From: Candidatus Moraniibacteriota bacterium
Lineage (GTDB): Bacteria > Patescibacteriota > Minisyncoccia > Moranbacterales > UBA1568
DNA length: 64,000 nt
Assembly (NCBI GenBank): GCA_963778555.1
Contig: CAVZUR010000005.1
Span: 33,756-97,755 of the forward strand
Reading direction: 5' to 3'
Position numbers and translations under genes: made by a program. The stretch's first letter is position 1, and the number at the start of each line of letters is the position of its first letter. Under the pieces are notes generated by a model. That model ran no database searches. It saw only the letters and a program-made list of their open reading frames with translations, and was not told the DNA's origin. Positions 942 through 60,266 of this stretch are shown piece after piece.

Positions 942-1045
942 CATCAAAAGAAACATCACTATGTCTGACAAGGAATCACGTCCGGATACGAATGCATTTC
1001 TATTTGCCGCCCACCTCTATGTCCTCGTAGTGGGGACACTTATCT

Positions 1046-36304: not shown

Positions 36305-38131
36305 ATGTGCGGTATCGTCGGCTATACGGGCCAGCGCCAGGTCAAAGATGTTCTCATTGAAGGGTTGAAGCGCCTGGAATACCGTGGCTATGATTCGGCC
36401 GGAGTCGCCTTCCTCGACGGCAAGAAGGTACGGATCGTTAAGGCTGCTGGCAAGGTTGCTATCCTGGAGTCGAAAATCGGCACGCTTTCAGTTGCTGGGA
36501 TGGGTATTGCGCATACTCGTTGGGCGACGCATGGGAAACCATCTGAGAAGAATGCTCATCCGCACTCAGACTGCCAGAGTCATGTGGCGGTCGTGCATAA
36601 TGGTATCATCGAGAATTACCGCGAGTTGCGGGAGGTGTTAGAAAAGCAAGGGCATCGGTTTCGGTCAGAGACGGACACCGAGACGATTGCGCATCTGATT
36701 GAAGAAGGAATGAAGACGGATACCTTCGAAACGTCGTTCGTGATAGCTCTCAAAGTGCTTCGCGGGGCGTATGGCATTGTTGCCATTTCGAGCGAGCATC
36801 CGGGAGTGATGCTTGCGGCACGGAACAGCAGCCCGCTGGTCATCGGCATCGGGAAAGGCGAGATGTTCGTTGCGTCGGATGTCTCGGCGATGATTGGCGA
36901 CGTGAAGCGCGTCGTGTACCTCGATGACGGAGAAATAGCGAAAATTGATCGGGAGGGCTATACGGTCAAAACACTGGGGAGCCGGAAGCGAGCGAAAGCT
37001 GAGATTACGCTCGAATGGGATCAAGCTATCGCTGAACGGGGAGGATATCCGCATTTCATGCTGAAAGAGATCTTTGACCAGCCGAAGAGCTTCACGGACG
37101 CGCTCCGTGGCCGATTGCTTGTGAAGGAAGGGCGGGTTCGTCTCGGAGGTCTGAGGACAGTTGAGAAACGCCTTCGCCAGATCAATCGTATCGTTATCGT
37201 TTCTTGCGGGACCTCGTATCATTCCGGTCTCGTGGGAGAATACCTCATCGAGGAGCTGGCGCATATTCCGACTGAGGTTGAGATGGCCTCCGAATTCCGC
37301 TATCGCCAGCCGATTGTTGACAAGCGGACGGCGGTCATTGCGATTTCTCAATCGGGTGAAACAGCGGATACGCTCGCTGCTATCCGCGAGGCGAAGTCTC
37401 AGGGCGCGCTGACCATCGGCATCGTCAATGTCGTCGGTTCGACGATCGCGCGAGAAACGGATGCGGGCGTGTACTGCCACGCCGGTCCGGAGGTGAGTGT
37501 GGCCTCGACCAAAGCCTTTACTTCGCAACTGGCTGTCCTTTCGCTCTTGGCGATCTATCTCGGGCAGGATCGCGATCTGGCTCCGAAGCTTGTAGCCCGC
37601 ATCGTGAGGGAGTTGGCCAAGATTCCCAGGCATATGGAAACGGTCCTGAAAGGGACGAGTTCAATTCAGAGGCTCGCGAAACAATACGCGCGACAAGAAC
37701 ACTATCTCTATCTCGGCCGGAAATATAATTATCCGGACGCGCTTGAGGGCGCACTGAAGATCAAAGAGATCGCGTATGTTCCGGCCCAGGGTTATCCGAC
37801 CGGCGAGATGAAGCATGGGCCGATTGCGCTTATTGAACCTTCAGCCTTGGCCTTCATGCTCATTCCGCACGACAGTGTCTACGAGAAAAATATGAGCGGT
37901 CTGGAAGAAATCCTCGCTCGTGGCGGAAAAGTAATCGTACTAGCGACCGAAGGTGATACCGCTCTCAAACGAAAGGCGACGCATGTGATCGCCATTCCAA
38001 AAACACTCGAAATGCTCACACCGATTCTTTCGGCCCTCCCGCTTCAATTGTTCGCGTATTTCGTCGCCGTCGAGCGGGGCTATGATATCGATCAGCCCCG
38101 CAACCTGGCAAAGAGCGTCACAGTTGAGTAA
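36305..38131 (+). CDS. glmS: glutamine--fructose-6-phosphate aminotransferase
   Basis: N-terminal MCGIVGY (Ntn Cys) and two SIS domains; 608 aa. Confidence 0.95.
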   Translation: MCGIVGYTGQRQVKDVLIEGLKRLEYRGYDSAGVAFLDGKKVRIVKAAGKVAILESKIGTLSVAGMGIAHTRWATHGKPSEKNAHPHSDCQSHVAVVHNGIIENYRELREVLEKQGHRFRSETDTETIAHLIEEGMKTDTFETSFVIALKVLRGAYGIVAISSEHPGVMLAARNSSPLVIGIGKGEMFVASDVSAMIGDVKRVVYLDDGEIAKIDREGYTVKTLGSRKRAKAEITLEWDQAIAERGGYPHFMLKEIFDQPKSFTDALRGRLLVKEGRVRLGGLRTVEKRLRQINRIVIVSCGTSYHSGLVGEYLIEELAHIPTEVEMASEFRYRQPIVDKRTAVIAISQSGETADTLAAIREAKSQGALTIGIVNVVGSTIARETDAGVYCHAGPEVSVASTKAFTSQLAVLSLLAIYLGQDRDLAPKLVARIVRELAKIPRHMETVLKGTSSIQRLAKQYARQEHYLYLGRKYNYPDALEGALKIKEIAYVPAQGYPTGEMKHGPIALIEPSALAFMLIPHDSVYEKNMSGLEEILARGGKVIVLATEGDTALKRKATHVIAIPKTLEMLTPILSALPLQLFAYFVAVERGYDIDQPRNLAKSVTVE

Positions 38132-38176
38132 GATACCTTGGAGGAGCAGGCTTTATCCGGCTGATTTTTTGCAAAT

Positions 38177-38851
38177 ATGAAAAGCGCTATCCCTGAATTT
38201 CTCCCGCTCGATCGGCCACTCATCGTCTTCGATCTCGAAACGACCGGCTTGTCCACGAGTGAGGACAAGATTATCGAACTTGCATATGAAAAGATTATGC
38301 CGGACGGCAGCGTGACGGCTCATGTCCAGCGCATCAATCCTGGGAAACCGATTGCGGCCGAAGCAAGTGCAATCAATGGGATAACGGACGCAGACGTGGC
38401 CCATGCTCCGAGTTTCGCGAAGCTGTCCTATGAGCTCTGGAGTGCTTTCGAGGGAGCGGATGTAGGCGGCTTCAATATCACTGGGTTTGATCTCCCGTTC
38501 CTCAAGGCAGAATTCGCGGCGGTCGGAAAAAGTTTTGATTACCTCTCACGGAAGATCTTGGATGCCAAGATTCTCTATCACAAGATGGAGAAGCGTGATA
38601 TGTTCGCACCCCGCAACCTCAGCGCCGCCTACAAGTTCTACTGCGGCAAGGAGCATACGAGTGCGCATACCGGAGCGGGCGATGTCCGCGTGACGGTCGA
38701 AGTGCTGGAGGAAGAATTGCGCCGGTATCCGGAATTCCGCGATTGGAAATATCTCGCCGAGCTCCATGGCAACAAGGATCTGCTCGAATCGGCAAAAACC
38801 GAGCATGCGAGCTATGAAGACACGGTGGCACGAGCCAATACGCTTTTCTAA
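38177..38851 (+). CDS. DEDDh 3'-5' exonuclease (DNA polymerase III epsilon-like)
   Basis: Exo I motif VFDLETTGL, and Exo II and III motifs; 224 aa. Confidence 0.8.
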   Translation: MKSAIPEFLPLDRPLIVFDLETTGLSTSEDKIIELAYEKIMPDGSVTAHVQRINPGKPIAAEASAINGITDADVAHAPSFAKLSYELWSAFEGADVGGFNITGFDLPFLKAEFAAVGKSFDYLSRKILDAKILYHKMEKRDMFAPRNLSAAYKFYCGKEHTSAHTGAGDVRVTVEVLEEELRRYPEFRDWKYLAELHGNKDLLESAKTEHASYEDTVARANTLF

Positions 38852-38860
38852 TGACGACGT

Positions 38861-39625
38861 ATGAGCAGTCTCGACGCGATTTTTCTCGGCATAGTCGAAG
38901 GGCTCACGGAGTTTCTTCCGATTTCTTCGACGGGGCATCTGATACTGACTTCACAGCTCCTGGGATTAGCTGAAACTGATTTTCTTAAATCATTCGAGGT
39001 AGTGATTCAGCTTGGTGCCATCCTAGCGGTTGTCACGCTCTATTGGCGGAAGCTATTCTTCGATTGGCCGATCATGCTGCGGATTGCGGTCGCGTTGCTT
39101 CCAGCGCTGGGCGTCGGGTACCTCTTCTATGCCACCATCCGATCAATGTTAGACTCACAGTTGACGGTTGTCCTGGCGCTTTTTTTCGGCGGTGTCATCC
39201 TTATTCTCTTTGAACGCTATCGGAAAGTGCCAGCCGTCACCGGCACTCTCGAAACGTTGACGTATCGACAAGCTGGAATCATCGGTCTCGCACAGGCACT
39301 CTCAGTCGTACCGGGAGTCTCTCGGGCCGGGGCTACAATCGTCGGTGGTCTTTTGACCGGACTTTCGCGACCTGCGTCCGTCGAGTTCTCCTTTCTCTTA
39401 GGGGTTCCGACTATGGTCGCCGCGACAACGCTCGATCTCGCCGAAAATTATCAGACGTTCTCCTGGGACGATGTGCAGTCGCTCTCACTCGGACTGATAA
39501 TGTCATTCCTGGTGGCGCTCATAGCGATTAAATTCCTCCTCCGTTTCGTGGAGACGCATTCATTCACTGCGTTTGGCGTGTACCGCATCATCGCCGCCGT
39601 TTTCTTTTACTTCTTCATTCTCTAG
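38861..39625 (+). CDS. uppP: undecaprenyl-diphosphate phosphatase
   Basis: BacA signature EGLTEFLPISSTGHL; polytopic membrane protein. Confidence 0.9.
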   Translation: MSSLDAIFLGIVEGLTEFLPISSTGHLILTSQLLGLAETDFLKSFEVVIQLGAILAVVTLYWRKLFFDWPIMLRIAVALLPALGVGYLFYATIRSMLDSQLTVVLALFFGGVILILFERYRKVPAVTGTLETLTYRQAGIIGLAQALSVVPGVSRAGATIVGGLLTGLSRPASVEFSFLLGVPTMVAATTLDLAENYQTFSWDDVQSLSLGLIMSFLVALIAIKFLLRFVETHSFTAFGVYRIIAAVFFYFFIL

Positions 39626-39630
39626 TCTGC

Positions 39631-40488
39631 ATGCGCTCTCTCTACGGAAAACCGATTGCTGCCGAGATACTCCGGCAGACGAAAAAGTCGCTCCAGGCGC
39701 GCGGTGTCACTCCCGGATTGGGGGTGGTATTGGTGGGAAACGACCCAGCCTCAGAAATCTATGTCGAGTTGAAAGAGAAGGCTGCCCGATCGGTCGGCGT
39801 GGCTTTTGAGAAGCATCTCTTGCCAGCGGATAGCAGAACCGATGATGTCCGGTCACTGGTACAGAAACTCAATACGCGCGCGGATATCCATGGCATCATT
39901 GTCCAGCTCCCACTTCCCGCTGGCATCGAAGCGGATGCCGTAATCGCGACGATTTGTCCACACAAAGATGCTGATGGATTCCATCCCGAAACCGTTGAGC
40001 GCTTTCTTGCCGGATCGACTCATATACCGCCTGTGTTTCCGCGAGCGATTCTGGCGCTGCTTCGAAATACTGGCGTCACTCTGCAAGACAAACAGGCGCT
40101 CATTTTCGCGAATTCTCATTTGTTCGCTCGGGTGATGGCCAAGGCCCTCAGTCAATTCAGTATTCGTGCCGAAGACAGCCTGTTACTCACTCCGGCTGAA
40201 ACAAAGACCAAGCTTGCATCGGCCGACATCATCATCTCTGCCAAAGGTGACCCGCATTTTTTGAAGGGCGATATGGTCCGCTCGGGGGCGATCATCGTCG
40301 ATGGCGGCATCACGCGCGTCGGAGAGCGGGTGATGAGCGATGTGGATCCAGCGAGCTTCGAACTGATCGAGGGCTTTATTACTCCAGTTCCTGGTGGTGT
40401 CGGACCAGTGACAGTCGCGTACCTCATCGCTCGAGTAGCTGAACTTGCATTGGGCGGGTCGGATGAGGAGAGTATACTAGAGTCATGA
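39631..40488 (+). CDS. folD: bifunctional methylenetetrahydrofolate dehydrogenase/cyclohydrolase
   Basis: FolD motifs (GVVLVGNDPASEIYV, IHGIIVQLPLP, PVPGGVGP). Confidence 0.9.
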   Translation: MRSLYGKPIAAEILRQTKKSLQARGVTPGLGVVLVGNDPASEIYVELKEKAARSVGVAFEKHLLPADSRTDDVRSLVQKLNTRADIHGIIVQLPLPAGIEADAVIATICPHKDADGFHPETVERFLAGSTHIPPVFPRAILALLRNTGVTLQDKQALIFANSHLFARVMAKALSQFSIRAEDSLLLTPAETKTKLASADIIISAKGDPHFLKGDMVRSGAIIVDGGITRVGERVMSDVDPASFELIEGFITPVPGGVGPVTVAYLIARVAELALGGSDEESILES

Positions 40489-40985
40489 CAGTCAATCGGA
40501 AAAAATTGAAAGGATCAGTCCTCGGTTTCTCGCTCATGCTCCTTTCGGTCCTGCTTCTTTCAGGTATCACCGTCGTCAGTGTCTCTGTCTTGGAACGGAA
40601 AGCGAGTTTTGCGACGCAGAAGTCGGTGATTGCGTTTCAGGCTGCCGACAGCGGTGCCGAACGCGTTCTAAATATTATCTACATGAGGAATTCACCCGCG
40701 GTGGCGGTCTTGCCACTCGGCTCACTTACAATCGATGCCTCTATTTCCATCCTACCGCTTTCTGGTGCCGTTCTCATCGCCTGTGATTTTGCTACCAATA
40801 CTCTCACAGCGACGAATAATGCCGCACCAGTGTACACCTTTAACGTCGTGTTCTACAAAAATGATGGGTCAAGGGTTGGCTGTGCTGAAACCGGTTGGCG
40901 GGATTCAGTGGTGCGCATTCGGGTCGAAGGATTTTTCCAGCGTACCTCGCGCGTCGTGGAAATCGGCATCCGTCAGAGGGTCTAG
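40485..40985 (+). CDS. hypothetical secreted/membrane protein with prepilin-like N-terminus
   Basis: Basic leader ending in G followed by a hydrophobic segment of about 20 aa (…KKLKGSVLG/FSLMLLSVLLL…). It lacks the usual Glu at +5, so the pilin assignment is weak. Confidence 0.35.
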   Translation: MTVNRKKLKGSVLGFSLMLLSVLLLSGITVVSVSVLERKASFATQKSVIAFQAADSGAERVLNIIYMRNSPAVAVLPLGSLTIDASISILPLSGAVLIACDFATNTLTATNNAAPVYTFNVVFYKNDGSRVGCAETGWRDSVVRIRVEGFFQRTSRVVEIGIRQRV

Positions 40986-41002
40986 AGGAGTAATCAGAAT
41001 GT

Positions 41003-41040
41003 GCCGCGGGAGAGACTCGAACTCTCATGATATTGCTATC
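41003..41040 (-). tRNA. tRNA-like 3' fragment: T-arm plus acceptor strand (GAGAGTTCGAGTCTCTC-CCGCGGC-A) of a Leu-type tRNA
   Basis: Canonical T-loop TTCGAGT with a 5-bp stem and 7-nt acceptor strand, but no matching 5' half is adjacent. Confidence 0.3.
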
Positions 41041-41087
41041 GCGGGATTTTGTCCTCCCAAGGCGGATAAAAGTCCCTGTTGCTATTG

Positions 41088-41170
41088 TGGGCGAGGAGAG
41101 ACTTGAACTCTCACGCTGTTGCCAGCATTGGATTTTGAGTCCAACGTGTCTACCATTCCACCACTCGCCC
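41088..41170 (-). tRNA. tRNA-Leu (anticodon CAA), class II with long variable arm, no encoded CCA
   Basis: Folded by hand: acceptor GGGCGAG/CTCGCCC, D-arm GTGG-AATGGTAG-ACAC, anticodon stem TTGGA/TCCAA, loop CTCAAAA, 15-nt variable arm, T-arm GAGAG-TTCAAGT-CTCTC, discriminator A. Confidence 0.8.
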
Positions 41171-41184
41171 ATTGTTTCCTCCGT

Positions 41185-41241
41185 GTGCCTGCCCGTCCGA
41201 AGTTCTTACGAAGGAGGGTCTACCATTCCACCACCGCGGCT
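41185..41241 (-). tRNA. tRNA-like 5' fragment: acceptor GCCGCGG + Leu-type D-arm (GTGGAATGGTAGAC), no T-arm
   Basis: Its acceptor strand is complementary to the 3' fragment at 41003-41040; the D-arm is identical to that of tRNA-Leu(CAA). Confidence 0.3.
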
Positions 41242-41301
41242 TTTGAGCCTTTGAATGTTGCCAAAAAGGCTCTCTTTAGGGAAGAGTAGGCAATTGAAAG
41301 A

Positions 41302-42120
41302 GTGTTGTCAATCACCTATAATGACCCTATGACTCAGATAATTGCGTTCGTCAATCAGAAAGGTGGTGTCGGGAAAACCACGACCACGATTAATGTCGCT
41401 CGTTACCTCGCGGAGGCGGGTCGGCGCGTGCTCTTGGTGGATCTTGATCCTCAAGGCAACGCTTCGTCAGGTCTTGGGGTGCACGTGCGGAATCTCGAGA
41501 AGAATCTCTACCACTCGATGATTCTCGGTCTCGCTCCGATGGAAATCATTCTCGATATCGGCATCCCAAATCTCTATCTCATTCCAGCCGCCCAAGATTT
41601 GGCGGGTGCGGAGATTGAAATGGTTCATCTCAGCGAGCGCGAATTCCGGCTCTATCAGGTCCTCCGGCAGCTCCGGTCTGAGTTCGATTATATTCTCATC
41701 GATAGCCCGCCCTCTCTCGGACTTTTGACAATAAATGGTCTGGTTGCGAGCGATGGTGTGATCGTGCCGGTCCAGACGGAATACTATGCGCTCGAAGGAC
41801 TGTCTCAGCTTCTCGGCACAATCGAACTCGTGCGCGAGCATTTGCAGCCAAACCTGAAAATTTTTGGCGCGCTTCTCACGCTTTTCGATCGGCGGAATCG
41901 TCTGGCCCGCCAGGTCGTGGAGGAAGTCCGGCGGCATTTTCCGGGCCCAGTGTTCGACAGCGTCATCCCGCGATCGGTCCGGTTAGCCGAGGCGCCGAGC
42001 TTTGGGAAATCCATTCTTGATTTCGATGCGTTTTCCAAAGGCGCCCGCGCCTACAAATCTGTTGTCCGTGAGATACTCGAACGCGAAGAAACCGAGCGGA
42101 AAAATCTTAAAGTAGTGTAG
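41302..42120 (+). CDS. parA: chromosome partitioning ATPase ParA/Soj
   Basis: Deviant Walker A KGGVGKTT; the start is probably the internal Met (MTQIIAF). Confidence 0.9.
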   Translation: MLSITYNDPMTQIIAFVNQKGGVGKTTTTINVARYLAEAGRRVLLVDLDPQGNASSGLGVHVRNLEKNLYHSMILGLAPMEIILDIGIPNLYLIPAAQDLAGAEIEMVHLSEREFRLYQVLRQLRSEFDYILIDSPPSLGLLTINGLVASDGVIVPVQTEYYALEGLSQLLGTIELVREHLQPNLKIFGALLTLFDRRNRLARQVVEEVRRHFPGPVFDSVIPRSVRLAEAPSFGKSILDFDAFSKGARAYKSVVREILEREETERKNLKVV

Positions 42121-42131
42121 AATACTAGCAT

Positions 42132-43052
42132 ATGGCCCAGCAGTATGGACTGGGGCGCGGACTCGCTTCGCTCATTCCTCCTAAAAAAGAAAAATCATCA
42201 GCTGCCGCATCAACGGGAGCGGCTTTTGGGTCAGCACCAACGTCCGTCTTGCCGCCGGTAACAGTTTCGCACCCCGATATGCCAGTGATCCGCGAGATTC
42301 CCATCGGCGATATCGTTCCCAATCCGCATCAGCCGCGTCTCCACTTTGACGAAGCGAAGCTCGCAGAGCTCTCTGAATCTATCAGGGACCACGGGATTCT
42401 CCAGCCGCTCGTTGTTTCTTCGCTTGGAGACGGAAAATACGAGCTCATTGCCGGGGAACGCCGGCTTCAGGCGGCGAAGCGCGCGGGACTCATGGCGGTG
42501 CCAGTGGTCGTACGGCAGGCTGATAATCAGGAGAAACTTGAATTAGCTATCATCGAGAATATTCAGCGCCATGATCTGAATCCAATTGAAGAGGCGAGGG
42601 CGTATCTGCGTTTGACTGATGAGTTCGGGCTGCATCAGGATGCAGTCGCGAAAAAAATGGGCAAGAGTCGACCGAACATATCGAATACCCTCAGGCTCCT
42701 GACGCTCCCAGTGGAGATTCAGCGCGCCATTATCGAGGGAAAGATCAGTGAGGGGCATGCCAAAGCGCTCCTTTCCATCGAGAACCCCGAGAAACAGCGG
42801 GCACTTTTTGAACTTATCATCAAAGAAGAGCTCACGGTGCGTGAGGCTGAGGAAAAAGCGCGCGCAGTTTCCGTCCGTTCCCATCTTCGTACGGTCCGAG
42901 AAAATAGTCCTGAGCTTGCCGCCAAGGAAGATTGGCTGACCGAGCAGCTGGGGACGAAGGTACGAATTCAGTCGCGAGGTAAAGGGGGGAAAATAACCAT
43001 TGAGTTCTACTCGAATGAGGAACTTAGTGGAATCCTCGGTCGGCTCGCGTAA
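42132..43052 (+). CDS. parB: chromosome partitioning protein ParB/Spo0J
   Basis: ParB box GERRLRAA, HTH, and N-terminal IPIGDIVPNPHQPR. Confidence 0.9.
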   Translation: MAQQYGLGRGLASLIPPKKEKSSAAASTGAAFGSAPTSVLPPVTVSHPDMPVIREIPIGDIVPNPHQPRLHFDEAKLAELSESIRDHGILQPLVVSSLGDGKYELIAGERRLQAAKRAGLMAVPVVVRQADNQEKLELAIIENIQRHDLNPIEEARAYLRLTDEFGLHQDAVAKKMGKSRPNISNTLRLLTLPVEIQRAIIEGKISEGHAKALLSIENPEKQRALFELIIKEELTVREAEEKARAVSVRSHLRTVRENSPELAAKEDWLTEQLGTKVRIQSRGKGGKITIEFYSNEELSGILGRLA

Positions 43053-43078
43053 TGTCTGTCAAAACAAACGAAAGAGTG

Positions 43079-43116
43079 ACAGAGAGACGGACGGCCTCTC
43101 TGTTTGTTCGTGTTTC
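43079..43116 (+). terminator. rho-independent terminator after parB
   Basis: ACAGAGAG-9-nt loop-CTCTCTGT followed by TTGTTCGTGTTTC. Confidence 0.6.
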
Positions 43117-43214
43117 ATATCAATCTGACTGATACCTCACTTCAGTAAGTCATTATATTTTTCTGTCAAGGTCAGAATATATTCAGTTCAATCACGAAAG
43201 AAGCCATCAATTCG

Positions 43215-43223
43215 TGGTATAAT
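43215..43223 (+). promoter_or_regulatory. extended -10 element TGGTATAAT
   Basis: TGnTATAAT about 50 nt upstream of the 43277 start. Confidence 0.35.
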
Positions 43224-43276
43224 ACAGGCTGAAATCTTGTCTAAAGTGGCGTTCCGAGGGCTCTCTACATGAATGT

Positions 43277-44113
43277 ATGGCGGAAGAAAAAACAACCATC
43301 AATCCTTTTCTCGGTAATCAAAAAACCCCCCCACCAGAGAGCCATGCGGCTGTCGAGCCAGCGGTATTGAGTCGTCGTGTACAGTCCGCTCCATCGAAAA
43401 CGACTTCAATGACCACAAACCTTCCGACTGAAGGAAGGTCGGGGATTGCTTCACCCTCGAGCAAGCGGCGGCATCAAGCAGTACGGTGGAGTCTGATCAG
43501 CCTCTCATTCCTGGTCGTCATTGTGGGACTCTTGTATTGGTGGTTCCGGGGAGTGGATAGCGTGCCAGTCGTAGCACCGAAAAGTGTACCGCCAGAAGAA
43601 CAGACAACAGTTCCGCTCAATATCGGAAATCTTGATGAACCAACAGCGCTTCCGGAGGGGAGTGCGAATTATGTCAGCGAGAATTTCAAAGCGGGAGAGA
43701 TCGTCATTGGCGGCGAACTCCAATTCCTCGTGGCTGAAGATGAGACAGGGCCACTTGCCTTGGACAATATCCGGGGTGAGGCGTTCACTGAAAAGAATAA
43801 ACAAGAAGTGAAACTCGTGGTGACTTGGACAACAAATAAGCTTTCGCAAGCAGCTGTCCGCTACTCGAAGGGTATTGGTCAGACAGAACGGTCCTTGAAA
43901 GAGGATGATTTCAGTTACAATCATAGCGTCATAATTTCCGGACTTGATCCGGCCTCGACCTACCTCTATGTGATTGATGCCGCTGACCGATATGGGAATC
44001 AGTTGCAGAGTGAGCCGCATGCGGTCTTTACGGGCGCCCGGACGGTGTCATTGTTTGATTTGATTGCAGGCGCTATCGGTGAAGTATTCGGCTGGGCGGT
44101 ATCAAATAAATAG
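43277..44113 (+). CDS. single-pass membrane protein with extracellular fibronectin-III-like domain
   Basis: TM helix LISLSFLVVIVGLLYWWF followed by a beta-rich domain (VKLVVTWTTNK…YNHSVIISGLDPASTYLYVIDAADRYGN). Confidence 0.5.
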   Translation: MAEEKTTINPFLGNQKTPPPESHAAVEPAVLSRRVQSAPSKTTSMTTNLPTEGRSGIASPSSKRRHQAVRWSLISLSFLVVIVGLLYWWFRGVDSVPVVAPKSVPPEEQTTVPLNIGNLDEPTALPEGSANYVSENFKAGEIVIGGELQFLVAEDETGPLALDNIRGEAFTEKNKQEVKLVVTWTTNKLSQAAVRYSKGIGQTERSLKEDDFSYNHSVIISGLDPASTYLYVIDAADRYGNQLQSEPHAVFTGARTVSLFDLIAGAIGEVFGWAVSNK

Positions 44114-44147
44114 CCCTTGATTAATTAAAAAAGATAATGTTTTTTTG

Positions 44148-44156
44148 TGATATAAT
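44148..44156 (+). promoter_or_regulatory. extended -10 element TGATATAAT upstream of the giant gene
   Basis: TGnTATAAT 16 nt upstream of the 44172 start. Confidence 0.3.
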
Positions 44157-44171
44157 TCAGCTATGGCATGA

Positions 44172-46436
44172 ATGTCCGCCATGTACTGGTATGTAAAAAA
44201 TAAAAATCTAAAACCGTATACTTATCTCCTAGCGATCGCATTGGCGACGGGGAGTCTCATTGGTTGGGGGATTCGATCCCAATCCGTTTTTGCGCAATCA
44301 ATAAATCAAATCTCAGTCGCTGCCTCGCTCTTCGACTCAGAAAGTAAACTTATCATCAATGGCGAGTATTCAGTCCGATTCGCTCTCTATCAAACAGATC
44401 GGGCAACCGCTGATGCTTACCCGTCGAACGCGGATGCGGGCAGCCGGCTGTGGGAAGAGACTCAGACCGTCACTGTAAAGAATGGTATCCTTCGAGCGTT
44501 CTTAGGGTCTTCGGTGGCGCTTCCACCAGACCTAAATTTCGAAAGCGGCGATTATTATCTCGGTATTCGAGTTGGTACGGACTCAGAGATGGTCCCCCGG
44601 AAGAAGCTCGGCGCTGTACCTGCTGCCTTGAATTCGCAATTTCTCCGCGGCAGGACATCTGGGACGAGCGAGGGCAATCTTCTGATACTGGGGAAAAACG
44701 GCAAGGTGAATATCAAACAGCTCCCGGTCGGGACCGGAGCGAATCAATTGGTACGAGGTGATGATTCGCGTCTCGGCGATAGTCATCAGCAGAATACGGA
44801 CATCAGTACCGATTCAGAGATTTTTACCATCGGCGATGGCACAAGCGCCACGAGTACGAATTTTGATCTCGCCGTTTCGAACTCGGCGACGCCTCCTGCG
44901 CTCCGGTACAACGGATCGACACAGGCCTGGCAACTCTCGAATGATGGGACCACCTTCTCAGACATCTCGTCCGGCCTGTCAGGTTCGGTGATTTTGGGAA
45001 CGGGTACAGACGGGGATTATGTCGAATCGATCTCCAATGGCAACGGGATTTTTGGGGGCGATGGCGGCAGCGAAGGGGCAGCGCTTTCGCTCAGCATCAA
45101 TCTTCTGGATTCCGCGGACGGTACCGGGAGTATTTCGAGCGAATCCGGACTTGAGTTCCAAGGTTTAGGAAATGATGAGCTCACCCTCCTACAGGGATGT
45201 GCGGATACGCAGCTTCTGGCGTGGGACGATACGAATAATGTCTGGGAATGTTCAACGGTTTCAGGTGCTGGTGGATTGAGCGGATCAGGCGGATCAGGCC
45301 AAGCAGCTTTCTGGACGAGCTCGACAACGCTCTCGGGTGAGAATCAGCTCAATCCGTCGCGCGGTGGTACTGGCGTGGATGGATCATTAGCCGCCAATGG
45401 TTCGCTCCTTATCGGCAACGGCACGGGGTATACACTGGCGACGCTCACCCAAGGGACGGGTATCACCGTCACCAACGGCGCAGGAAGCATCACCATCGCT
45501 TCCACCCTCGGGACAAGCATCGATCTCACGACTGAAGTGACCGGCACCCTCCCAGTCGGGAGTGGTGGCACCGGTGCGACGACCTTTACGAGCGGCGGAG
45601 TACTGTATGGGAACAGCACCTCCGCCGTCCAAGTCACCGCCGCCGGCACGAATGGTCAGCTCCTCCTCGGCGTCACGGCTGGTGCCCCGACCTTCGCCAC
45701 CATGAGTAGCGATGCCTCCATCACCAATGCTGGTGTCCTGACTATCGCCGCCGATGCTGTCGCCCTCACCACCGATACCACGGGGAACTATGTCGCGAAT
45801 GTCCAGACGAGCGTCCTCACCGGTCTCACCGGTGGCTCAGCGGGGAGCGAAGGAGCGTCTCTCACCCTCAACCTCGATTACTCCCAAGCCCTGACCGGGG
45901 ATGTGGCCTTGGGTGCGAATGCAGGTGTCTTCGGTCAGTCCGGCTTCGCCTTCGAAGGCTCGAGTGCTGACACGATCGAGACCTATCTCGTCGTCACCAA
46001 TCCTACTGCCTCGGACAAGACGATTACGTTCCCGGATGCATCCGGCACCGTTGTCCTGTCAGGTGGGACACTGTTCACGGCCGCTGGCACCTCCGGTTCC
46101 AGCCAAACCATCTCGCAGGGGGATACTCTGACTATCGCCGCTGGTACCGGTATCACGACCACCGGCGGAGCGACTGATACCATCACCATCGCTTCGACCC
46201 TCGGGACAAGCATCGATCTCACAACTGAAGTGACCGGCACCCTCCCAGTCGGCAATGGCGGTACTGGCGCCACCACCTTCACTGCCAATGGCGTCCTCTA
46301 TGGCAACACCACCGGTGCGGTTCAAGTCACCGCCGCCGGCACGAATGGTCAGCTCCTCCTCGGTGTCACCGCTGGTGCGCCAGACTTTCGCCACAATGAG
46401 CAGCGGATGCCTCCATCACCAATGCTGGTGTCCTGA
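44172..46436 (+). CDS. giant Thr/Gly/Ser/Ala/Asn-rich tandem-module surface protein, segment 1 (signal peptide plus first modules)
   Basis: N-terminal signal-like sequence MSAMYWYVKNKNLKPYTYLLAIALATGSLIGWGIRSQSVFAQS; the modular repeats begin at about aa 250. The ORF ends at a double indel near 46390-46420. Confidence 0.7.
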   Translation: MSAMYWYVKNKNLKPYTYLLAIALATGSLIGWGIRSQSVFAQSINQISVAASLFDSESKLIINGEYSVRFALYQTDRATADAYPSNADAGSRLWEETQTVTVKNGILRAFLGSSVALPPDLNFESGDYYLGIRVGTDSEMVPRKKLGAVPAALNSQFLRGRTSGTSEGNLLILGKNGKVNIKQLPVGTGANQLVRGDDSRLGDSHQQNTDISTDSEIFTIGDGTSATSTNFDLAVSNSATPPALRYNGSTQAWQLSNDGTTFSDISSGLSGSVILGTGTDGDYVESISNGNGIFGGDGGSEGAALSLSINLLDSADGTGSISSESGLEFQGLGNDELTLLQGCADTQLLAWDDTNNVWECSTVSGAGGLSGSGGSGQAAFWTSSTTLSGENQLNPSRGGTGVDGSLAANGSLLIGNGTGYTLATLTQGTGITVTNGAGSITIASTLGTSIDLTTEVTGTLPVGSGGTGATTFTSGGVLYGNSTSAVQVTAAGTNGQLLLGVTAGAPTFATMSSDASITNAGVLTIAADAVALTTDTTGNYVANVQTSVLTGLTGGSAGSEGASLTLNLDYSQALTGDVALGANAGVFGQSGFAFEGSSADTIETYLVVTNPTASDKTITFPDASGTVVLSGGTLFTAAGTSGSSQTISQGDTLTIAAGTGITTTGGATDTITIASTLGTSIDLTTEVTGTLPVGNGGTGATTFTANGVLYGNTTGAVQVTAAGTNGQLLLGVTAGAPDFRHNEQRMPPSPMLVS

Positions 46437-46486
46437 CCATCGCCGCCGATGCCGTCGCCCTCACCACGGATACCACGGGGAACTAT

Positions 46487-47749
46487 GTGGCTTCGGCGAC
46501 CGCTTCAGGTGGACTCGTCATGACCGGGACCGAAGGCGCCTCGCTCGGCATCCTGCTTCCAACCGCGACCGACGGTCTCTCGACAACCACTTCTTCTGGC
46601 TCTGGTTTGGAATTGCTATCAAATGGATTAACCTTGCTGCAAGGCTGTGCGAATAATGAAGTTTTGTCATGGAACGAGTCGCTCGATCTTTGGTCCTGTA
46701 CCTCCATCGCGGGCGTCGGTGGCGTTACTGGTTCTGCCACTACCGGACAGGCTGCTTTCTGGAGTGGTACATCGACTATTGCTGGTGAGAATCAGCTTGC
46801 TACTTCTCGCGGTGGTACCGGGGTTAATGGTTCAGCAGCCGCCAATGGTTCGCTCCTCATCGGCAACGGCACGGGGTATACACTGGCGACGCTCACCCAA
46901 GGTACGGGTATCACCGTCACCAACGGCGCAGGAAGCATCACCATCGCTTCAACCCTCGGGACAAGCATCGATCTCACGACTGAAGTGACCGGCACCCTCC
47001 CAGTCGGCAATGGTGGTACTGGCGCCACCACCTTCACTGCCAATGGCGTCCTCTATGGCAACACCACCGGTGCGGTCCAAGTCACCGCCGCTGGCACGAA
47101 TGGTCAGCTCCTCCTCGGCGTTACGGCTGGTGCCCCGACCTTCGCCACCATGAGTAGCGATGCCACTATCACCAATGCTGGTGTCCTGACCATCGCCGCC
47201 AATGCTGTCGCCCTCACCACCGATACCACGGGGAACTATGTCGCGAATGTCGCGAATGGGAATGGCATCGCGGGCGGCTCAGCGGGGAGCGAAGGGGCCG
47301 CATTGACCCTCGCGATTGATCTCCTTGATTCAGCGGACGGTGCGGGCGCAGTGGCGAGCAACTCAGGTCTTGAATTTCAAGGTGCGGGATCGAATGAACT
47401 CGCCATCATCCAAGGCTGTTCCAATGGCCAAGGTATTTCCTGGGATGACACGACCAATCTTTGGCAATGTACCAGCTTCTCTGCCGGACTCGCTGGGAGT
47501 GGCACGACCGGTTATGCGACCTACTGGAGTGGCACCTCCTCCTTGGGGAGCGAGCAATTTCTCTCGACGGTCAGAGGCGGCACCGGTCTCGATGGCTCAG
47601 CGGCCGCCAATGGCACCCTCCTCATCGGCAATGGCACGGGGTATACGCTGAGCGACGTTGACCGATGGTACGGGTATTACTATCACGGAAGGCGCAGGAA
47701 GCATCACCATCGCTTCCACCCTCGGGACAAGCATCGATCTCACGACTGA
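46487..47749 (+). CDS. giant surface protein, segment 2 (continues segment 1 after the frame break)
   Basis: Same module sequence (…LIGNGTGYTLATLTQGTGITVTNGAGSITIASTLGTSIDLTTEVTGTLPVGNGG…); coding continuity with no intervening start or RBS. Confidence 0.65.
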   Translation: MASATASGGLVMTGTEGASLGILLPTATDGLSTTTSSGSGLELLSNGLTLLQGCANNEVLSWNESLDLWSCTSIAGVGGVTGSATTGQAAFWSGTSTIAGENQLATSRGGTGVNGSAAANGSLLIGNGTGYTLATLTQGTGITVTNGAGSITIASTLGTSIDLTTEVTGTLPVGNGGTGATTFTANGVLYGNTTGAVQVTAAGTNGQLLLGVTAGAPTFATMSSDATITNAGVLTIAANAVALTTDTTGNYVANVANGNGIAGGSAGSEGAALTLAIDLLDSADGAGAVASNSGLEFQGAGSNELAIIQGCSNGQGISWDDTTNLWQCTSFSAGLAGSGTTGYATYWSGTSSLGSEQFLSTVRGGTGLDGSAAANGTLLIGNGTGYTLSDVDRWYGYYYHGRRRKHHHRFHPRDKHRSHD

Positions 47750-50700
47750 AGTGACCGGCACCCTCCCAGTCGGCAATGGTGGTACCGGCGCCACCACCTT
47801 CACTGCCAATGGCGTCCTCTATGGCAACACCACCGGTGCGGTTCAAGTCACCGCCGCCGGCACGAATGGCCAACTCCTCCTCGGCGTCACCGCTGGTGCC
47901 CCGACCTTCGCCACTATGAGTAGCGATGCCTCCATCACCAATGCTGGTGTCCTGACCATCGCCGCCGATGCTGTCGCCCTCACCACCGATACCACAGGGA
48001 ACTATGTGGCCAGCCTCACCGCTGGTAACGGTATCAGTGGTACCGTCGCCAGCGAGGGAGCAACCCCGACCCTCGATATCGATCTCCTTGTCGCTGCTGA
48101 TGGCACGGGCGTCACTTCCTCCAATTCCGGTCTCGAATTCGCTGGTGCAAGCTCTGATAAGCTCGCACTCATCCAAGGCTGTTCCAATGGTCAAGGTATT
48201 TCCTGGAATGACACGACCAATCTCTGGGAATGCACCAGTTTCTCCGCCGGACTCTCCGGGAGTGGCACGACCGGTTATGCGACCTACTGGAGTGGCACCT
48301 CCTCCTTGGGGAGCGAGCAATTTCTCTCGACGGTCAGAGGTGGTACCGGTCTCGACGGTTCAGCCGCCGCCAATGGCACCCTCCTCATTGGCAATGGCAC
48401 GGGATATACGTTAGCGACCCTGACCGGTACGGCGAATGAAATTGGCATTACGAATGCCGCTGGCTCCATCACTATCGGTGTCCCGGATGACGGACTCGAC
48501 TTCACCGAATTCCAAGACACCCTCGATCTCGATGCGGCTCTCACCCTGAACCAGACCACCAATACCTGGACCCAGTCCTTCACCGGCACCACCACCACCG
48601 GCTTCGCCTACACCGCCACTTCCCTCACCACCGGCTCCGCCCTCAATGTCACTACCACCAATACCGCCACCGCCAACACCGCCCTCTCACCGGTTCAGTT
48701 CAATCTGACGAATGCTCAATCAACTACCGCCAACACCAATGGTGTCACCGGCCTCGCCGTCAACTTCACCAACAACCCGAGTGTTGCTGGTAACACGGAG
48801 TACGCGCTCCGGATCCAGAATCAGCTCACCGCGAACGTCACCGACAACGCTGTCAGTGCCCTCCTCCTCCTCGACAACGCCGACTCTACCGCGACTGGCA
48901 CCACCATCGTCACCGATGCCATCGCCATCACGAACTCAGGCGGATCGAACTTCACCAACTTCCTCAATACCCCGACCCTCGACATCAGTGCGGCGGGGGC
49001 GATCACCGGAGCGACGGGGATCACAAGCTCGGGGAACATCACGTTCTCTAGCCTCACCGCGAACTCTTTCCTCTACTCGGGTACGGGCGGTCTCCTCACC
49101 ACGACGACCGCTCCGACCAATGGCCAGCTCCTTATCGGAAGTACCGGCGTGGCTCCCGTCGCCGCGGCACTCACCCAAGGGACGGGTATCACCGTCACCA
49201 ACGGTGCAGGAAGCATCACCATCGCTTCCACCCTCGGGACGAGCGTGGACCTCACAACTGAAGTGACCGGCACCCTCCCAGTCGGCAATGGCGGTACCGG
49301 CGCGACATCGCTGACGGATCTCATCGCGTTGACGACGCATACCACGGGGAACTATGTGGCGAATGTTGCGAATGGGAACGGTATCGCGGGCGGCTCAGCG
49401 GGGAGCGAAGGGGCTTCCCTCACGCTCGCAATCGATTTACTGGATGTGGACGACAGTACGGGAGCGATTGCGAGCAACTCCGGCCTCGAATTCCAGGGCG
49501 CCGGTTCCAATGAGCTGACTCTCCTTCAAGGTTGTGCTGACACCGAGATTCTCGCTTGGGACAATACGACCAATGAATGGGAATGTGCGACAGTATCCGG
49601 CGTCGGCGGACTCTCTGGAAGCGGTACCACGAATTACGCTACCTATTGGACTGGGACCTCAACGTTAGGTGCTGAGGCTCAGCTCGATGAAACTCGCGGT
49701 GGTACCGGGATTGGAACGTATGCGACGGGTGACGTTCTCTATGCGAGTGGTGTGAATACCCTCGCCCGACTTGCGGCTGGTACTGACGGACAAGTACTGG
49801 TTCTGTCGAGTGGCGTACCGGTGTGGAGTACGATCGGAGGCGGAGGCGGAGGCGGAGTGACCGCTGACTCCCTCGACTTCACCGAATTCCAAGACACCCT
49901 CGATCTCGATGCGGCCCTCACCCTGAACCAGACCACCAATACCTGGACCCAGTCCTTCACCGGCACCACCACCACCGGCTTCGCCTACACCGCCACTTCC
50001 CTCACCACTGGCTCCGCCCTCAATGTCACTACCACCAATACCGCCACCGCCAACACCGCCCTCTCACCGGTTCAGTTCAATCTGACGAATGCTCAATCAA
50101 CTACCGCCAACACCAATGGTGTCACCGGCCTCGCCGTCAACTTCACCAACAACCCGAGTGTTGCTGGTAACACGGAGTACGCGCTCCGGATCCAGAATCA
50201 GCTCACCGCGAACGTCACCGACAACGCTGTCAGTGCCCTCCTCCTCCTCGACAACGCCGACTCTACCGCGACTGGCACCACCATCGTCACCGATGCCATC
50301 GCCATCACGAACTCAGGCGGATCGAACTTCACCAACTTCCTCAATACCCCAACCCTCGACATCAGTGCGGCGGGGGCCATCACTGGAGCGACGGGGATCA
50401 CCTCGAGTGGCTCTATCACCTTTAGTGCCTTTACCAGTAATGGTGGTCCGCTCTACACCAACGGTTCGGGTGTCATCGCTCAAACCACTGCCGGGACAGC
50501 AACCCAAGTCCTCCATGGTGGTACTGCTCCAAGCTTCTCCGCGGTCTCCCTCACCACCGATGTCTCGGGCACCCTCCCAGTCGGCAATGGCGGTACTGGC
50601 GCCACCACCTTCACTGCCAATGGCGTCCTCTATGGCAACACCACCGGTGCGGTCCAAGTCACCGCCGCTGGCACGAATGGTCAGCTCCTCCTCGGCGTCA

Positions 50701-52724: not shown

Positions 52725-52945
52725 CTCCCTCGACTTCACCGAATTCCAAGACACCCTCGATCTCGATGCGGCCCTCACCCTGAACCAGACCACCAATACC
52801 TGGACCCAGTCCTTCACCGGCACCACCACCACCGGCTTCGCCTACACCGCCACTTCCCTCACCACGGGCTCCGCCCTCAATGTCACCACCACCAATACCG
52901 CCACCGCCAACACCGCCCTCTCACCGGTTCAGTTCAATCTGACGA

Positions 52946-60213: not shown

Positions 60214-60266
60214 TACCATCACCATCGCTTCCACCCTCGGGACGAGCATCGCCGCAGCTGAAGTCG

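What the first reader, a model, noticed from the sequence alone, without database searches (positions are those of the whole stretch)
41003..41241. tRNA-Leu(CAA) sits between the two halves of a second, split Leu-type tRNA
A complete class II tRNA-Leu(CAA) on the minus strand lies at 41088-41170. It is flanked on one side by a 5' tRNA half (41241-41185: acceptor GCCGCGG plus Leu-type D-arm, with no T-arm). On the other side is a 3' half (41040-41003: T-arm GAGAGTTCGAGTCTCTC plus acceptor CCGCGGC plus discriminator A). The two acceptor strands are exactly complementary. Either one tRNA-Leu gene has been interrupted by insertion of a paralogue, leaving a dead isoacceptor, or this is a split or large-intervening-sequence tRNA requiring unusual processing. 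A short direct repeat (ACAAT / CAAT) flanks the inserted tRNA.
Basis: seen in the sequence. Interest (0 to 1): 0.6.

Follow-up and report, generated by a model that had tools for sequence, protein, structure and literature searches.

The report
Dead tRNA-Leu shell around replacement copy
The bacterium's original tRNA-Leu(CAA) gene was broken by DNA insertions, one of which is a complete foreign copy of the same tRNA that now does the job; relatives show this is a recurring replacement process linked to a small nuclease gene that lives in tRNA genes.

Summary
On the minus strand a complete tRNA-Leu(CAA) (41170-41088) lies between pieces of a second tRNA-Leu with complementary acceptor strands. 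The outer gene is not a different isoacceptor and most likely not a split tRNA. It is the resident tRNA-Leu(CAA) gene that sits next to parA in nearly all sampled Moranbacteria (CPR/Patescibacteria). Deleting three insertions (31 nt, 104 nt carrying the inner gene, 19 nt in the anticodon loop) restores a sequence identical to the intact gene of the closest relatives. The inner gene is another allele (22 of 83 differences), identical to the only gene at this locus in a more distant relative. About one in five sampled species carries such remnants, and seven loci are nested. In other loci a 74-94 aa GIY-YIG nuclease gene sits between a disabled partial tRNA copy and an intact one. The same 19-nt hairpin unit is found only in the disabled copies. 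I read the window as an ORF-less relic of this replacement cycle, producing one working tRNA. The nuclease-driven mechanism is inferred. I found no published description of it.

The parts
41283..41311 (-). Promoter-like block for the tRNA transcript: TTGACA (41311-41306), 17-nt spacer, TACTCT (41288-41283). It overlaps the divergent parA promoter on the + strand.
   Evidence: Read by eye. The block ATTGACAA..TCAATTGCCTAC is conserved upstream of the single intact tRNA in relatives. The scan tool flags only the + strand parA promoter TTGAAA-17-TATAAT at 41294-41322, because TACTCT matches the -10 consensus at only 3 of 6 positions. Function is inferred.
41219..41240 (-). Outer (resident, type a) tRNA-Leu(CAA), positions 1-22: acceptor 5' strand GCCGCGG, U8 G9, and the D arm up to GGTAGA.
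   Evidence: 100% match to the intact tRNA of L067, L020, L021 and L005.
41188..41218 (-). 31-nt insertion after position 22. This is the same site that carries a 19-nt hairpin unit in relatives.
   Evidence: Spliced alignment. It folds no better than shuffled sequence (z +0.49). It is also present in L115.
41181..41187 (-). Outer tRNA positions 23-29 (CACACGG).
   Evidence: Exact 7-mer in register after the insertion. Relatives resume at the same point after their unit at this site.
41171..41180 (-). Filler AGGAAACAAT between the 5' remnant and the inner gene.
   Evidence: A 1-nt indel relative to L115 suggests it is unconstrained.
41088..41170 (-). Inner, complete tRNA-Leu(CAA), type c allele (acceptor GGGCGAG/CTCGCCC, discriminator A, no encoded CCA). 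This is the functional gene.
   Evidence: ARAGORN; Rfam tRNA 61.9 bits; cloverleaf minimum-free-energy fold, z -3.1. It is identical to the sole tRNA at this locus in L029.
41077..41087 (-). Filler CAATAGCAACA after the inner gene.
41071..41076 (-). Outer tRNA positions 28-33 (GGGACT). It overlaps the 5' remnant by 2 nt (GG).
   Evidence: The 3' remnants in L001, L004 and L033 start at the same point.
41052..41070 (-). 19-nt hairpin unit TTTA-TCCGCC-TTG-GGAGGA, inserted after U33 in the anticodon loop of the outer gene.
   Evidence: It is a member of a unit family aligned from 15 loci. It is the only such unit in the 64-kb window. It extends the anticodon stem into a long hairpin of -12.2 kcal/mol.
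41002..41051 (-). Outer tRNA positions 34-83: anticodon CAA, 3' strand of the anticodon stem, variable arm, T arm, acceptor 3' strand CCGCGGC, discriminator A.
   Evidence: 50 of 50 identical to the intact orthologues.

Best explanation
This is the conserved single tRNA-Leu(CAA) locus that lies head-to-head with parA in Moranbacteria. In this genome the resident allele (type a) was broken at the DNA level into a non-functional shell by three insertions:
- 31 nt after position 22;
- a 104-nt segment after position 29, consisting of 10 nt, a complete foreign allele of the same isoacceptor (type c), and 11 nt;
- a 19-nt hairpin unit after U33.

Only the inner gene makes a working tRNA. It is presumably transcribed from the old promoter, with the outer 5' remnant as leader and the 3' remnant as trailer. 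It would then be released by RNase P and 3' trimming, with CCA added enzymatically.

The arrangement is one state of a recurrent replacement cycle at this locus. In relatives, a minimal GIY-YIG nuclease gene (UPF0213/SLX1-like) sits inside the tRNA gene. On one side is a disabled partial copy studded with the same 19-nt unit; on the other is an intact copy that keeps the cell supplied.

The window most likely descends from nuclease-triggered breakage of the resident gene, near the anticodon stem. The break would have been repaired with a foreign allele as template, leaving both ends of the old gene behind. No nuclease gene remains.

Shown: the anatomy, the orthology, the recurrence, the association with the nuclease gene, and the unit family.
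Inferred: transcription and processing, the break-and-repair origin, and the nuclease's activity.
For: 1. The outer pieces are 72 of 72 identical to the intact gene of L067, L020, L021 and L005, behind the same promoter block; L067 also shares the 3' flank.
2. The inner allele differs from the outer at 22 of 83 positions. It is identical to the only gene at this locus in L029 (ParA 78%). Near-identical copies are nested in L027 and L030 inside a different outer allele.
3. Of 48 species-level Moranbacteria loci with the syntenic tRNA, 9 carry remnants. Seven distinct loci are nested: window, L004, L013, L015, L027, L030, L040.
4. Outer copies elsewhere are incomplete or orphaned. L027 lacks positions 39-43, L013 lacks most of the variable arm, and L001, L028, L033, L034 have 3' pieces with no 5' partner. 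Their mismatches (3-7 per 50 nt) fit decay.
5. A 74-94 aa GIY-YIG ORF lies between a 5' fragment and an intact tRNA-Leu(CAA) in L017, L035 and L038, in all 8 close homologues found in metagenomes, and in L109. Related layouts occur on tRNA-Met and next to a tmRNA gene. Among the 48 loci, the ORF next to the tRNA occurs only where remnants exist (3 of 9 against 0 of 39; Fisher p 0.005).
6. L041 and L042 are empty-site relatives of L038 and L099 with an identical tRNA.
7. The 19-nt unit occurs only in disabled copies (13 of 13 hits in 551 kb; 1 of 1 in the window). It forms one family, with 97% of cells paired.
8. An independent assembly has the same structure.
Against: - The window has no GIY-YIG gene, so the link to the nuclease rests on relatives.
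- Loci that carry the nuclease gene lack 3' remnants, and nested loci lack the gene. The step connecting the two states is therefore conjecture.
- The imported segment carries only about 10 nt of flank on each side, and how it moved is unexplained.
- The outer pieces show no substitutions, although flanking DNA is only 68-82% identical to the closest relatives. This requires either a very recent event or some constraint on the pieces.
- The intact copy next to the nuclease gene would still contain any target that lies wholly inside the tRNA, so self-immunity is unexplained.
- Transcription and processing were not observed.
Confidence: 0.75

Rival explanations
1. The outer gene is functional. 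It would be a split or multiply interrupted tRNA whose three intervening sequences, including the inner tRNA, are removed or cut at the RNA level. The pieces would then be ligated, or held together by base pairing as in fragmented rRNA with RNase III-excised intervening sequences.
For: - All 83 positions of the outer tRNA are present and identical to intact orthologues once the insertions are removed, with a 7 of 7 acceptor helix.
- Insertions in this and related loci fall almost only in loop positions.
- The units keep their pairing.
- CPR rRNA genes are known to carry non-intron insertions, some with GIY-YIG ORFs, that must be removed or tolerated (PMC11270868).
Against: - It has the same anticodon as the intact inner gene, so there is no need for it.
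- The closest relatives have the uninterrupted gene.
- No Rfam intron family matches, and there is no bulge-helix-bulge.
- The exon junction has a 2-nt overlap (GG) rather than a clean boundary.
- A tRNA cut in the anticodon loop cannot decode.
- Related outer copies lack essential segments or a partner half, and nuclease-bearing modules have no 3' half at all.
Confidence: 0.06
2. Purely local history: the tRNA-Leu(CAA) gene duplicated in tandem, and the copies diverged and decayed through deletions and small insertions. No lateral import and no nuclease would be involved.
For: - Outer and inner share long identical stretches: 17 nt in the D arm, 13 nt around the anticodon, and the T arm. These could mediate slippage and unequal exchange.
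- There is no nuclease gene in the window.
Against: - The two alleles differ at 22 of 83 positions, including coordinated changes on both strands of three stems. Yet each is identical to the sole gene of other species: type a in L067, L020, L021, L005; type c in L029.
- The same inner allele sits inside a different outer allele in L027 and L030.
- A nested order needs two further deletions after a triplication.
- This history does not explain the 19-nt unit or its exclusive link with disabled copies and with GIY-YIG modules.
Confidence: 0.1
3. The fragments are attachment-site leftovers of an integrative element (tyrosine or serine integrase) that targeted the tRNA gene and was later lost.
For: Partial tRNA duplicates next to an intact tRNA are the classic signature of such elements (established knowledge). 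Pile-ups of 3' fragments occur in L001.
Against: - No integrase is present among the ten neighbouring genes tested, window 36305-47749, or in the gene tables returned for the related loci.
- The inserted segment is 104 nt and holds a whole tRNA.
- 5' fragments are as common as 3' fragments.
- The fragments are interrupted by the 19-nt units and are associated with a GIY-YIG gene instead.
Confidence: 0.03
4. Assembly chimera: reads from two strains with different tRNA alleles were joined at shared tRNA sequence.
For: The window is most likely from a metagenome assembly. This is inferred: all its close relatives are MAGs or metagenome contigs. The alleles share exact 13-17-nt stretches.
Against: - An independent Logan contig has the same 5' remnant, inner gene and start of the 3' remnant.
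- Nested loci recur in assemblies from NCBI, ENA, JGI and Logan.
- The junction fillers and insertions are not tRNA sequence.
Confidence: 0.02

Closest known systems
Free-standing GIY-YIG homing endonuclease SegB in the phage T4 tRNA gene cluster (PMC2330249; also PMC13096335)
   Same: A GIY-YIG nuclease gene lies among tRNA genes. It cuts the tRNA region of genomes that lack it, and the gene plus flanking tRNA sequence is copied in. Nuclease-driven rearrangement and amplification of tRNA loci has been reported.
   Different: SegB is a larger phage protein, which I recall (my own knowledge) as having a separate DNA-binding part. No partial tRNA duplicates or hairpin units have been described for it. 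Here the proteins are 74-94 aa catalytic domains closest to UPF0213/SLX1, they are chromosomal in CPR and other bacteria, and cleavage is untested. The window itself has no such gene.
Integrative elements that insert into tRNA genes and restore the gene with their own copy of the displaced part (established knowledge)
   Same: An insertion into a tRNA gene is made harmless by supplying replacement tRNA sequence. The displaced part remains as a fragment.
   Different: There is no integrase. The inserts are about 0.1-0.4 kb. A whole tRNA or its 5' part is supplied rather than the 3' end. The fragments acquire 19-nt hairpin units.
Insertion sequences in rRNA genes of CPR bacteria, some encoding LAGLIDADG, GIY-YIG or 23S_rRNA_IVP proteins (PMC11270868)
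   Same: Same bacterial group. Structural-RNA genes are interrupted at loop tips or stem bases. GIY-YIG ORFs lie in insertions that are not group I or II introns.
   Different: That work covers rRNA only (the word tRNA does not occur in it). There the interrupted gene must still work. Here a second, intact copy does the work and the interrupted copy decays.
Split, permuted and multi-intron tRNA genes of Archaea and red algae (PMC4090602, PMC3978253, PMC3728597)
   Same: tRNA sequence is interrupted at non-canonical positions, and separated halves have complementary acceptor strands.
   Different: Those rely on bulge-helix-bulge motifs and a splicing endonuclease, and the interrupted gene is the only source of that tRNA. 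Neither holds here.
Group I intron in the anticodon loop of bacterial tRNA-Leu(UAA) (established knowledge)
   Same: An insertion in the anticodon loop of a bacterial tRNA-Leu gene.
   Different: No ribozyme is detected. The inserts are 19 and 104 nt, and the site and anticodon differ.
Fractured genes with a homing endonuclease gene between gene halves (PMC2677866)
   Same: A selfish nuclease gene sits between two parts of a host gene.
   Different: There the halves are rejoined at the protein level by split inteins. Here an intact duplicate compensates.

Membership tests
Bacterial class II tRNA-Leu gene (inner gene) | Cloverleaf with a 7-bp acceptor stem, long variable arm, anticodon CAA and discriminator A73; scored above threshold by tRNA detectors | tested here: met
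   ARAGORN; Rfam RF00005 at 61.9 bits against 29; cloverleaf minimum-free-energy fold.
Bacterial class II tRNA-Leu gene (outer gene as it stands) | Continuous gene detectable as a tRNA | tested here: not met
   Not found by ARAGORN or Rfam. Only a sub-threshold ARAGORN call at 80% stringency, as 'tRNA-Thr(cgt) with 148-nt intron', which has no position 26 and a 26-nt variable region.
Split / BHB-intron tRNA | Bulge-helix-bulge (3-4-3) at each exon-intron boundary | tested here: not met
   Folds of the whole region and of the 19-nt insert show continuous helices with 1-nt bulges and no 3-4-3 motif. This was judged by inspection; no dedicated BHB scanner was available.
Split / BHB-intron tRNA | The interrupted gene is the source of that tRNA species, and the interruption is conserved among relatives | tested here: not met
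   An intact gene with the same anticodon lies inside it. The closest relatives have the uninterrupted gene.
Split / BHB-intron tRNA | A tRNA splicing endonuclease and ligase encoded in the genome | not testable with these tools
   Only a 64-kb window of the genome is available.
Group I intron in tRNA | Group I ribozyme core recognised by a covariance model; length of about 200 nt or more | tested here: not met
   No Rfam hit other than tRNA at E up to 10 in 40500-41800, nor in 14 related loci at gathering score. The inserts are 19, 31 and 104 nt.
Integrase-mediated insertion at a tRNA gene | An integrase gene and a kb-scale element bounded by a direct repeat of the tRNA 3' part | tested here: not met
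   The Pfam domains of ten neighbouring genes (window 36305-47749) include no integrase. The gene tables of related loci show none. The segment between the pieces is 104 nt.
Homing-endonuclease gene cassette (GIY-YIG) | A GIY-YIG ORF at the locus | tested here: not met
   Window: no tblastn or profile hit. Met in relatives L017, L035, L038, L050, L099-L106 and L109. The window is therefore filed only as a probable relic, not as a member.
Homing-endonuclease gene cassette (GIY-YIG) | Filled and empty sites at the same position among related genomes | tested here: met
   L038 and L099 (filled) against L041 and L042 (empty), with a 100% identical tRNA and 76-84% identical upstream DNA. This was tested in relatives, not in the window.
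Homing-endonuclease gene cassette (GIY-YIG) | Catalytic residues of the GIY-YIG fold conserved | tested here: met
   Invariant Y5, Y16, G18, R26, H30 and E58 in six proteins. Pfam PF01541 E 2e-12. Closest solved structures are UPF0213 1zg2 and 1ywl, then SLX1, then I-TevI. Mapping these to the catalytic Tyr, Tyr, Arg and Glu of I-TevI rests on my own knowledge.
Homing-endonuclease gene cassette (GIY-YIG) | Site-specific cleavage of the allele that lacks the gene | not testable with these tools
   Needs biochemistry.

The most novel reading that the evidence does not exclude
The nested tRNA may be a relic of an undescribed family of selfish elements. In this reading, minimal UPF0213/SLX1-like GIY-YIG nuclease genes settle inside tRNA and tmRNA genes at the junction of the anticodon stem and the variable loop. 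They keep the host alive by carrying a duplicate of the displaced tRNA part, or a whole replacement allele. They come with a 19-nt hairpin unit (TTTA + 6-bp stem + TNN loop) that multiplies in the loops of the disabled copy. The unit could serve as an immunity device, as a block to deletion by repeat recombination, or as the substrate of a structure-specific nuclease. Such elements would drive lateral turnover of single-copy tRNA genes in reduced genomes across several phyla.
Probability: 0.4. Interest if true: 0.75.

Novelty: new variant of a known kind. Interest (0 to 1): 0.6.

Why it matters
- Annotation: tRNA 'halves' around an intact tRNA in CPR genomes are remnants. They should not be called split tRNAs or counted as lost isoacceptors.
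- Evolution: a single-copy, presumably essential tRNA gene in a reduced genome is shown to be replaced repeatedly by foreign alleles, with about one species in five carrying scars.
- Mobile elements: if the link holds, a catalytic-domain-only GIY-YIG protein of the long-uncharacterised UPF0213 group gets a concrete genomic role and a testable target, namely tRNA genes. The 19-nt unit would be a new kind of very small insertion with strict target context.
- Both of the last two points can be tested directly with a few cloned sequences.

Tried and rejected
- ARAGORN with intron options finds only the inner gene at normal stringency. At 80% stringency it calls the outer gene 'tRNA-Thr(cgt)' with a 148-nt intron. 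I rejected this: it has no position 26, a 26-nt variable region, and it contradicts the orthologues.
- Rfam at E up to 10 gave only the tRNA plus two chance hits, Plastid-ycf2 on the antisense of the tRNA and DUF805b.
- I first read GGGACTTTTAYCCGCC as a conserved non-tRNA motif that pairs with the D stem. It is in fact the anticodon-stem 5' strand plus the 19-nt unit.
- The idea that the hairpin is a genome-wide miniature repeat was rejected. There were no other copies in the window or in 551 kb of loci.
- A phage vector was not found. There were no viral contigs with the unit in its tRNA context and no GIY-YIG homologue in 50,697 phage records.
- A resistant-allele idea (type c escapes the nuclease) was dropped, because nuclease modules occur with all anticodon-stem variants.
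- Retro-insertion of a mature tRNA was dropped, because the inner gene is followed by CAA, not CCA.
- My spliced aligner with nearly free insertions overfits random DNA (spurious scores of 30-58). Only long exact blocks were used.
- Seven literature searches found no description of tRNA-embedded GIY-YIG modules or nested bacterial tRNA genes. The library is incomplete, so this is not proof of novelty.

Full report
**What is there.** The window is a chromosomal stretch of a CPR/Patescibacteria bacterium of the Moranbacteria group. The gene order is glmS, an RNase T-like gene, uppP, folD, a PilX_N-like gene, then the tRNA region on the minus strand, then parA and parB (Pfam; the best ParA hits are named Moranbacteria). 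ARAGORN and Rfam find one tRNA in the whole 64 kb: tRNA-Leu(CAA) at 41170-41088 on the minus strand.

On both sides lie pieces of a second tRNA-Leu. A spliced alignment to the intact tRNA of relatives gives this layout, read on the minus strand:

| Window coordinates | Content |
|---|---|
| 41240-41219 | outer tRNA positions 1-22 |
| 41218-41188 | 31-nt insertion |
| 41187-41181 | outer positions 23-29 (CACACGG) |
| 41180-41171 | 10-nt filler |
| 41170-41088 | inner gene |
| 41087-41077 | 11-nt filler |
| 41076-41071 | outer positions 28-33 (GGGACT) |
| 41070-41052 | 19-nt insertion TTTATCCGCCTTGGGAGGA |
| 41051-41002 | outer positions 34-83 |

Its 5' 'half' contains the 31-nt insertion, and the 3' part begins earlier than it said. 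An independent Logan contig that encodes the identical ParA protein has the same 5' remnant, inner gene and start of the 3' remnant, with a 1-nt indel in the filler. An assembly chimera is therefore unlikely.

**Which gene is which.** I fetched the syntenic locus from relatives, using ParA homologues and their contigs and one scan of species-representative genomes. A tRNA-Leu(CAA) head-to-head with parA was found in 48 of 52 Moranbacteria loci. Most have one intact gene and nothing else.

The closest relatives (L067, L020, L021; ParA 90-91% identical) and L005 carry exactly the window's outer gene, uninterrupted. It lies behind the same conserved promoter block, and L067 also has the same 3' flank (CACATTC). 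Outer exon sequence is 72 of 72 identical to these genes, while flanking DNA is only 68-82% identical. The outer gene also had anticodon CAA.

The inner gene is a different allele. It has 22 of 83 differences, including both strands of the acceptor stem, the anticodon stem and the variable arm. It is identical to the only gene at this locus in L029 (ParA 78%). Near-identical copies are nested inside a different outer allele in L027 and L030. The outer gene is therefore the disrupted resident, and the inner gene is an imported replacement of the same isoacceptor.

**The arrangement recurs.**
- Nine of the 48 species-level loci carry remnants.
- Counting the other fetched loci, seven distinct loci are nested: window, L004, L013, L015, L027, L030, L040.
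- Others have an intact gene followed by orphan 3' fragments: L001, L028, L033, L034, L050.
- Remnants range from complete (window) to clearly defective. L027 lacks positions 39-43, L013 lacks most of the variable arm, and the orphan fragments have 3-7 mismatches per 50 nt.
- The inner tRNA of L004 has the acceptor stem of the window's outer allele on the body of the window's inner allele. Two deletions between the shared D-arm and T-arm stretches of a window-like nested locus would produce exactly this.

**A small nuclease gene is linked to the remnants.** In L017, L035 and L038 a 74-aa ORF lies between a 5' tRNA fragment and the intact tRNA. It is a GIY-YIG catalytic domain (Pfam E 2e-12). 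The GIY and YIG tyrosines, an Arg, a His and a Glu are invariant. It is closest to the solved UPF0213 proteins 1zg2 and 1ywl, then to SLX1, then to I-TevI.

A metagenome scan with this protein returned eight close homologues, and all eight have the same module:
- a promoter;
- a 5' fragment of tRNA-Leu of the same allele as the downstream gene, running to about position 41-43;
- the ORF;
- an intact tRNA-Leu(CAA).

A Parcubacteria locus (L109) is the same, and its start codon overlaps tRNA position 43. Other loci show related layouts:
- L086 has the module on tRNA-Met.
- Cloacimonetes loci have the mirror layout: an intact tRNA-Met, then the ORF, then a 3' fragment, in tandem copies.
- In L107 the ORF follows a tmRNA gene.

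L041 and L042 are empty-site relatives of the filled L038 and L099, with an identical tRNA. Among the 48 species-level loci, the ORF next to the tRNA occurs only where remnants exist (3 of 9 against 0 of 39; p 0.005). The window has no such ORF.

**The 19-nt unit.** Many insertions in the disabled copies are exactly 19 nt. Twenty-five of them, from 15 loci, align without gaps to one consensus: TTTA (or CTTG), a 6-bp GC-rich stem, a TNN loop, and the return strand. In that alignment 97% of cells are paired, and three of six pairs change on both sides.

The units occur in either orientation, almost always at loop positions: after raw positions 9, 12-13, 15-16, 22, 31-33 and 65-66. Their number changes between near-identical modules, for example two in L038 against one in L099, and five in tandem in L105. 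A strict pattern hit 13 times in 551 kb, always inside tRNA remnants. A relaxed pattern hit once in the window, at 41070. The window's unit extends the anticodon stem into a long hairpin and separates U33 from the anticodon. The origin of the units is unexplained. Because a palindrome is perfectly paired when it is first made, the covariation does not prove selection on an RNA structure.

**How it most likely works.** The locus yields one working tRNA, the inner one. I infer that it is transcribed from the conserved TTGACA-N17-TACTCT block at 41311-41283. The scan tool flags only the overlapping parA promoter on the other strand. The outer 5' remnant would be the leader and the 3' remnant the trailer, and no CCA is encoded.

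The history I favour has three steps:
1. A break occurred in the resident gene near the anticodon stem. The 3' remnants in the window, L001, L004 and L033 all start at position 28/29.
2. The break was repaired on one side from a foreign allele, and the other end was joined without homology. This left both parts of the old gene, with a 2-nt overlap.
3. Any nuclease gene was lost, or the nuclease acted in trans.

This fits the known behaviour of free-standing GIY-YIG homing endonucleases in the phage T4 tRNA cluster (PMC2330249). It also fits the presence of GIY-YIG ORFs in non-intron insertions of CPR rRNA genes (PMC11270868). Cleavage, target and immunity are untested, however. Loci with the ORF lack 3' remnants and nested loci lack the ORF, so the connecting step is conjecture.

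**Rivals.**
- *A functional split or intervened tRNA.* The perfect exons and the loop-only insertions favour it. Against it are the redundancy with the inner gene, the uninterrupted orthologues, the absence of any intron signature, the unit inside the anticodon loop, and the defective or orphan remnants elsewhere.
- *Local duplication and decay.* This does not explain alleles that are each identical to the genes of other species, or the same inner allele sitting in different outer alleles.
- *Integrase leftovers.* There is no integrase and no kb-scale element.
- *Assembly error.* This is countered by the independent contig and by the recurrence across assemblies from several sources.

**Novelty.** Seven full-text searches found nothing on nested bacterial tRNA genes or tRNA-embedded GIY-YIG modules, and the CPR rRNA insertion paper does not mention tRNA. 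The window's feature is a gene remnant plus a replacement copy, which is a known kind of thing. The nested like-for-like replacement, the 19-nt unit, and the link to a minimal GIY-YIG family across phyla make it a new variant.

Noticed in passing
window 41283-41322: The tRNA promoter-like block (minus strand, TTGACA-N17-TACTCT) and the parA promoter (plus strand, TTGAAA-17-TATAAT at 41294-41322) overlap back to back. The block is conserved across relatives.
   Followed up: partly
window 46000-64000: GC content rises from about 0.51-0.55 to about 0.60, and GC skew flips from positive to negative near 46-48 kb. A 1688-aa ORF (47658-52724, TTG start) begins there. This could be a replication landmark or an acquired region.
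   Followed up: no
L005 3749-4204; L013 2350-2724; L017 2330-2704: In several relatives a 23S_rRNA_IVP/bAvd-like four-helix-bundle gene is inserted between parA and parB. In L005 another copy lies between the RNase T-like gene and uppP. It is absent from the window, where parA and parB are adjacent.
   Followed up: no
L004 2786-2869 (minus strand): The inner tRNA of L004 is a chimera: the acceptor stem of the window's outer allele on the body of the window's inner allele. Two deletions between shared D-arm and T-arm stretches of a window-like nested locus would give exactly this.
   Followed up: partly
L009, about 890-1310 (minus strand, upstream of the intact tRNA): A tRNA-like 5' piece (GCCCGGATGACAGAATGGGTAGAT) is followed by about 330 nt of unknown sequence before the intact tRNA-Leu(CAA). 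No Rfam family matches.
   Followed up: partly
L112 1-1010; L113/L114: Two to three tandem copies of a unit made of a GIY-YIG ORF, a hairpin-studded 3' tRNA fragment and a terminator. In L113/L114 the array lies downstream of an intact tRNA-Met(CAT); ARAGORN finds no tRNA in L112, whose fragment type is unidentified. Some copies in L112 carry frameshifts.
   Followed up: partly
L107/L108 693-1410: A more distant GIY-YIG homologue (41% identical) lies about 120 nt downstream of a tmRNA gene, preceded by a GC-rich hairpin plus TAAAA.
   Followed up: partly
L086 1787-2014 (minus strand): The GIY-YIG ORF in the tRNA-Met module has an in-frame TGA. It is either a decaying copy or recoded.
   Followed up: no
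L032, L036, L043, L083: In four Moranbacteria loci the tRNA-Leu(CAA) next to parA is in the opposite orientation.
   Followed up: no
window 40485-40985 and equivalents: The gene between folD and the tRNA varies among relatives: a 166-aa PilX_N-like gene here, 175 aa without a domain in L001, 376 aa in L004, and none in L005.
   Followed up: no
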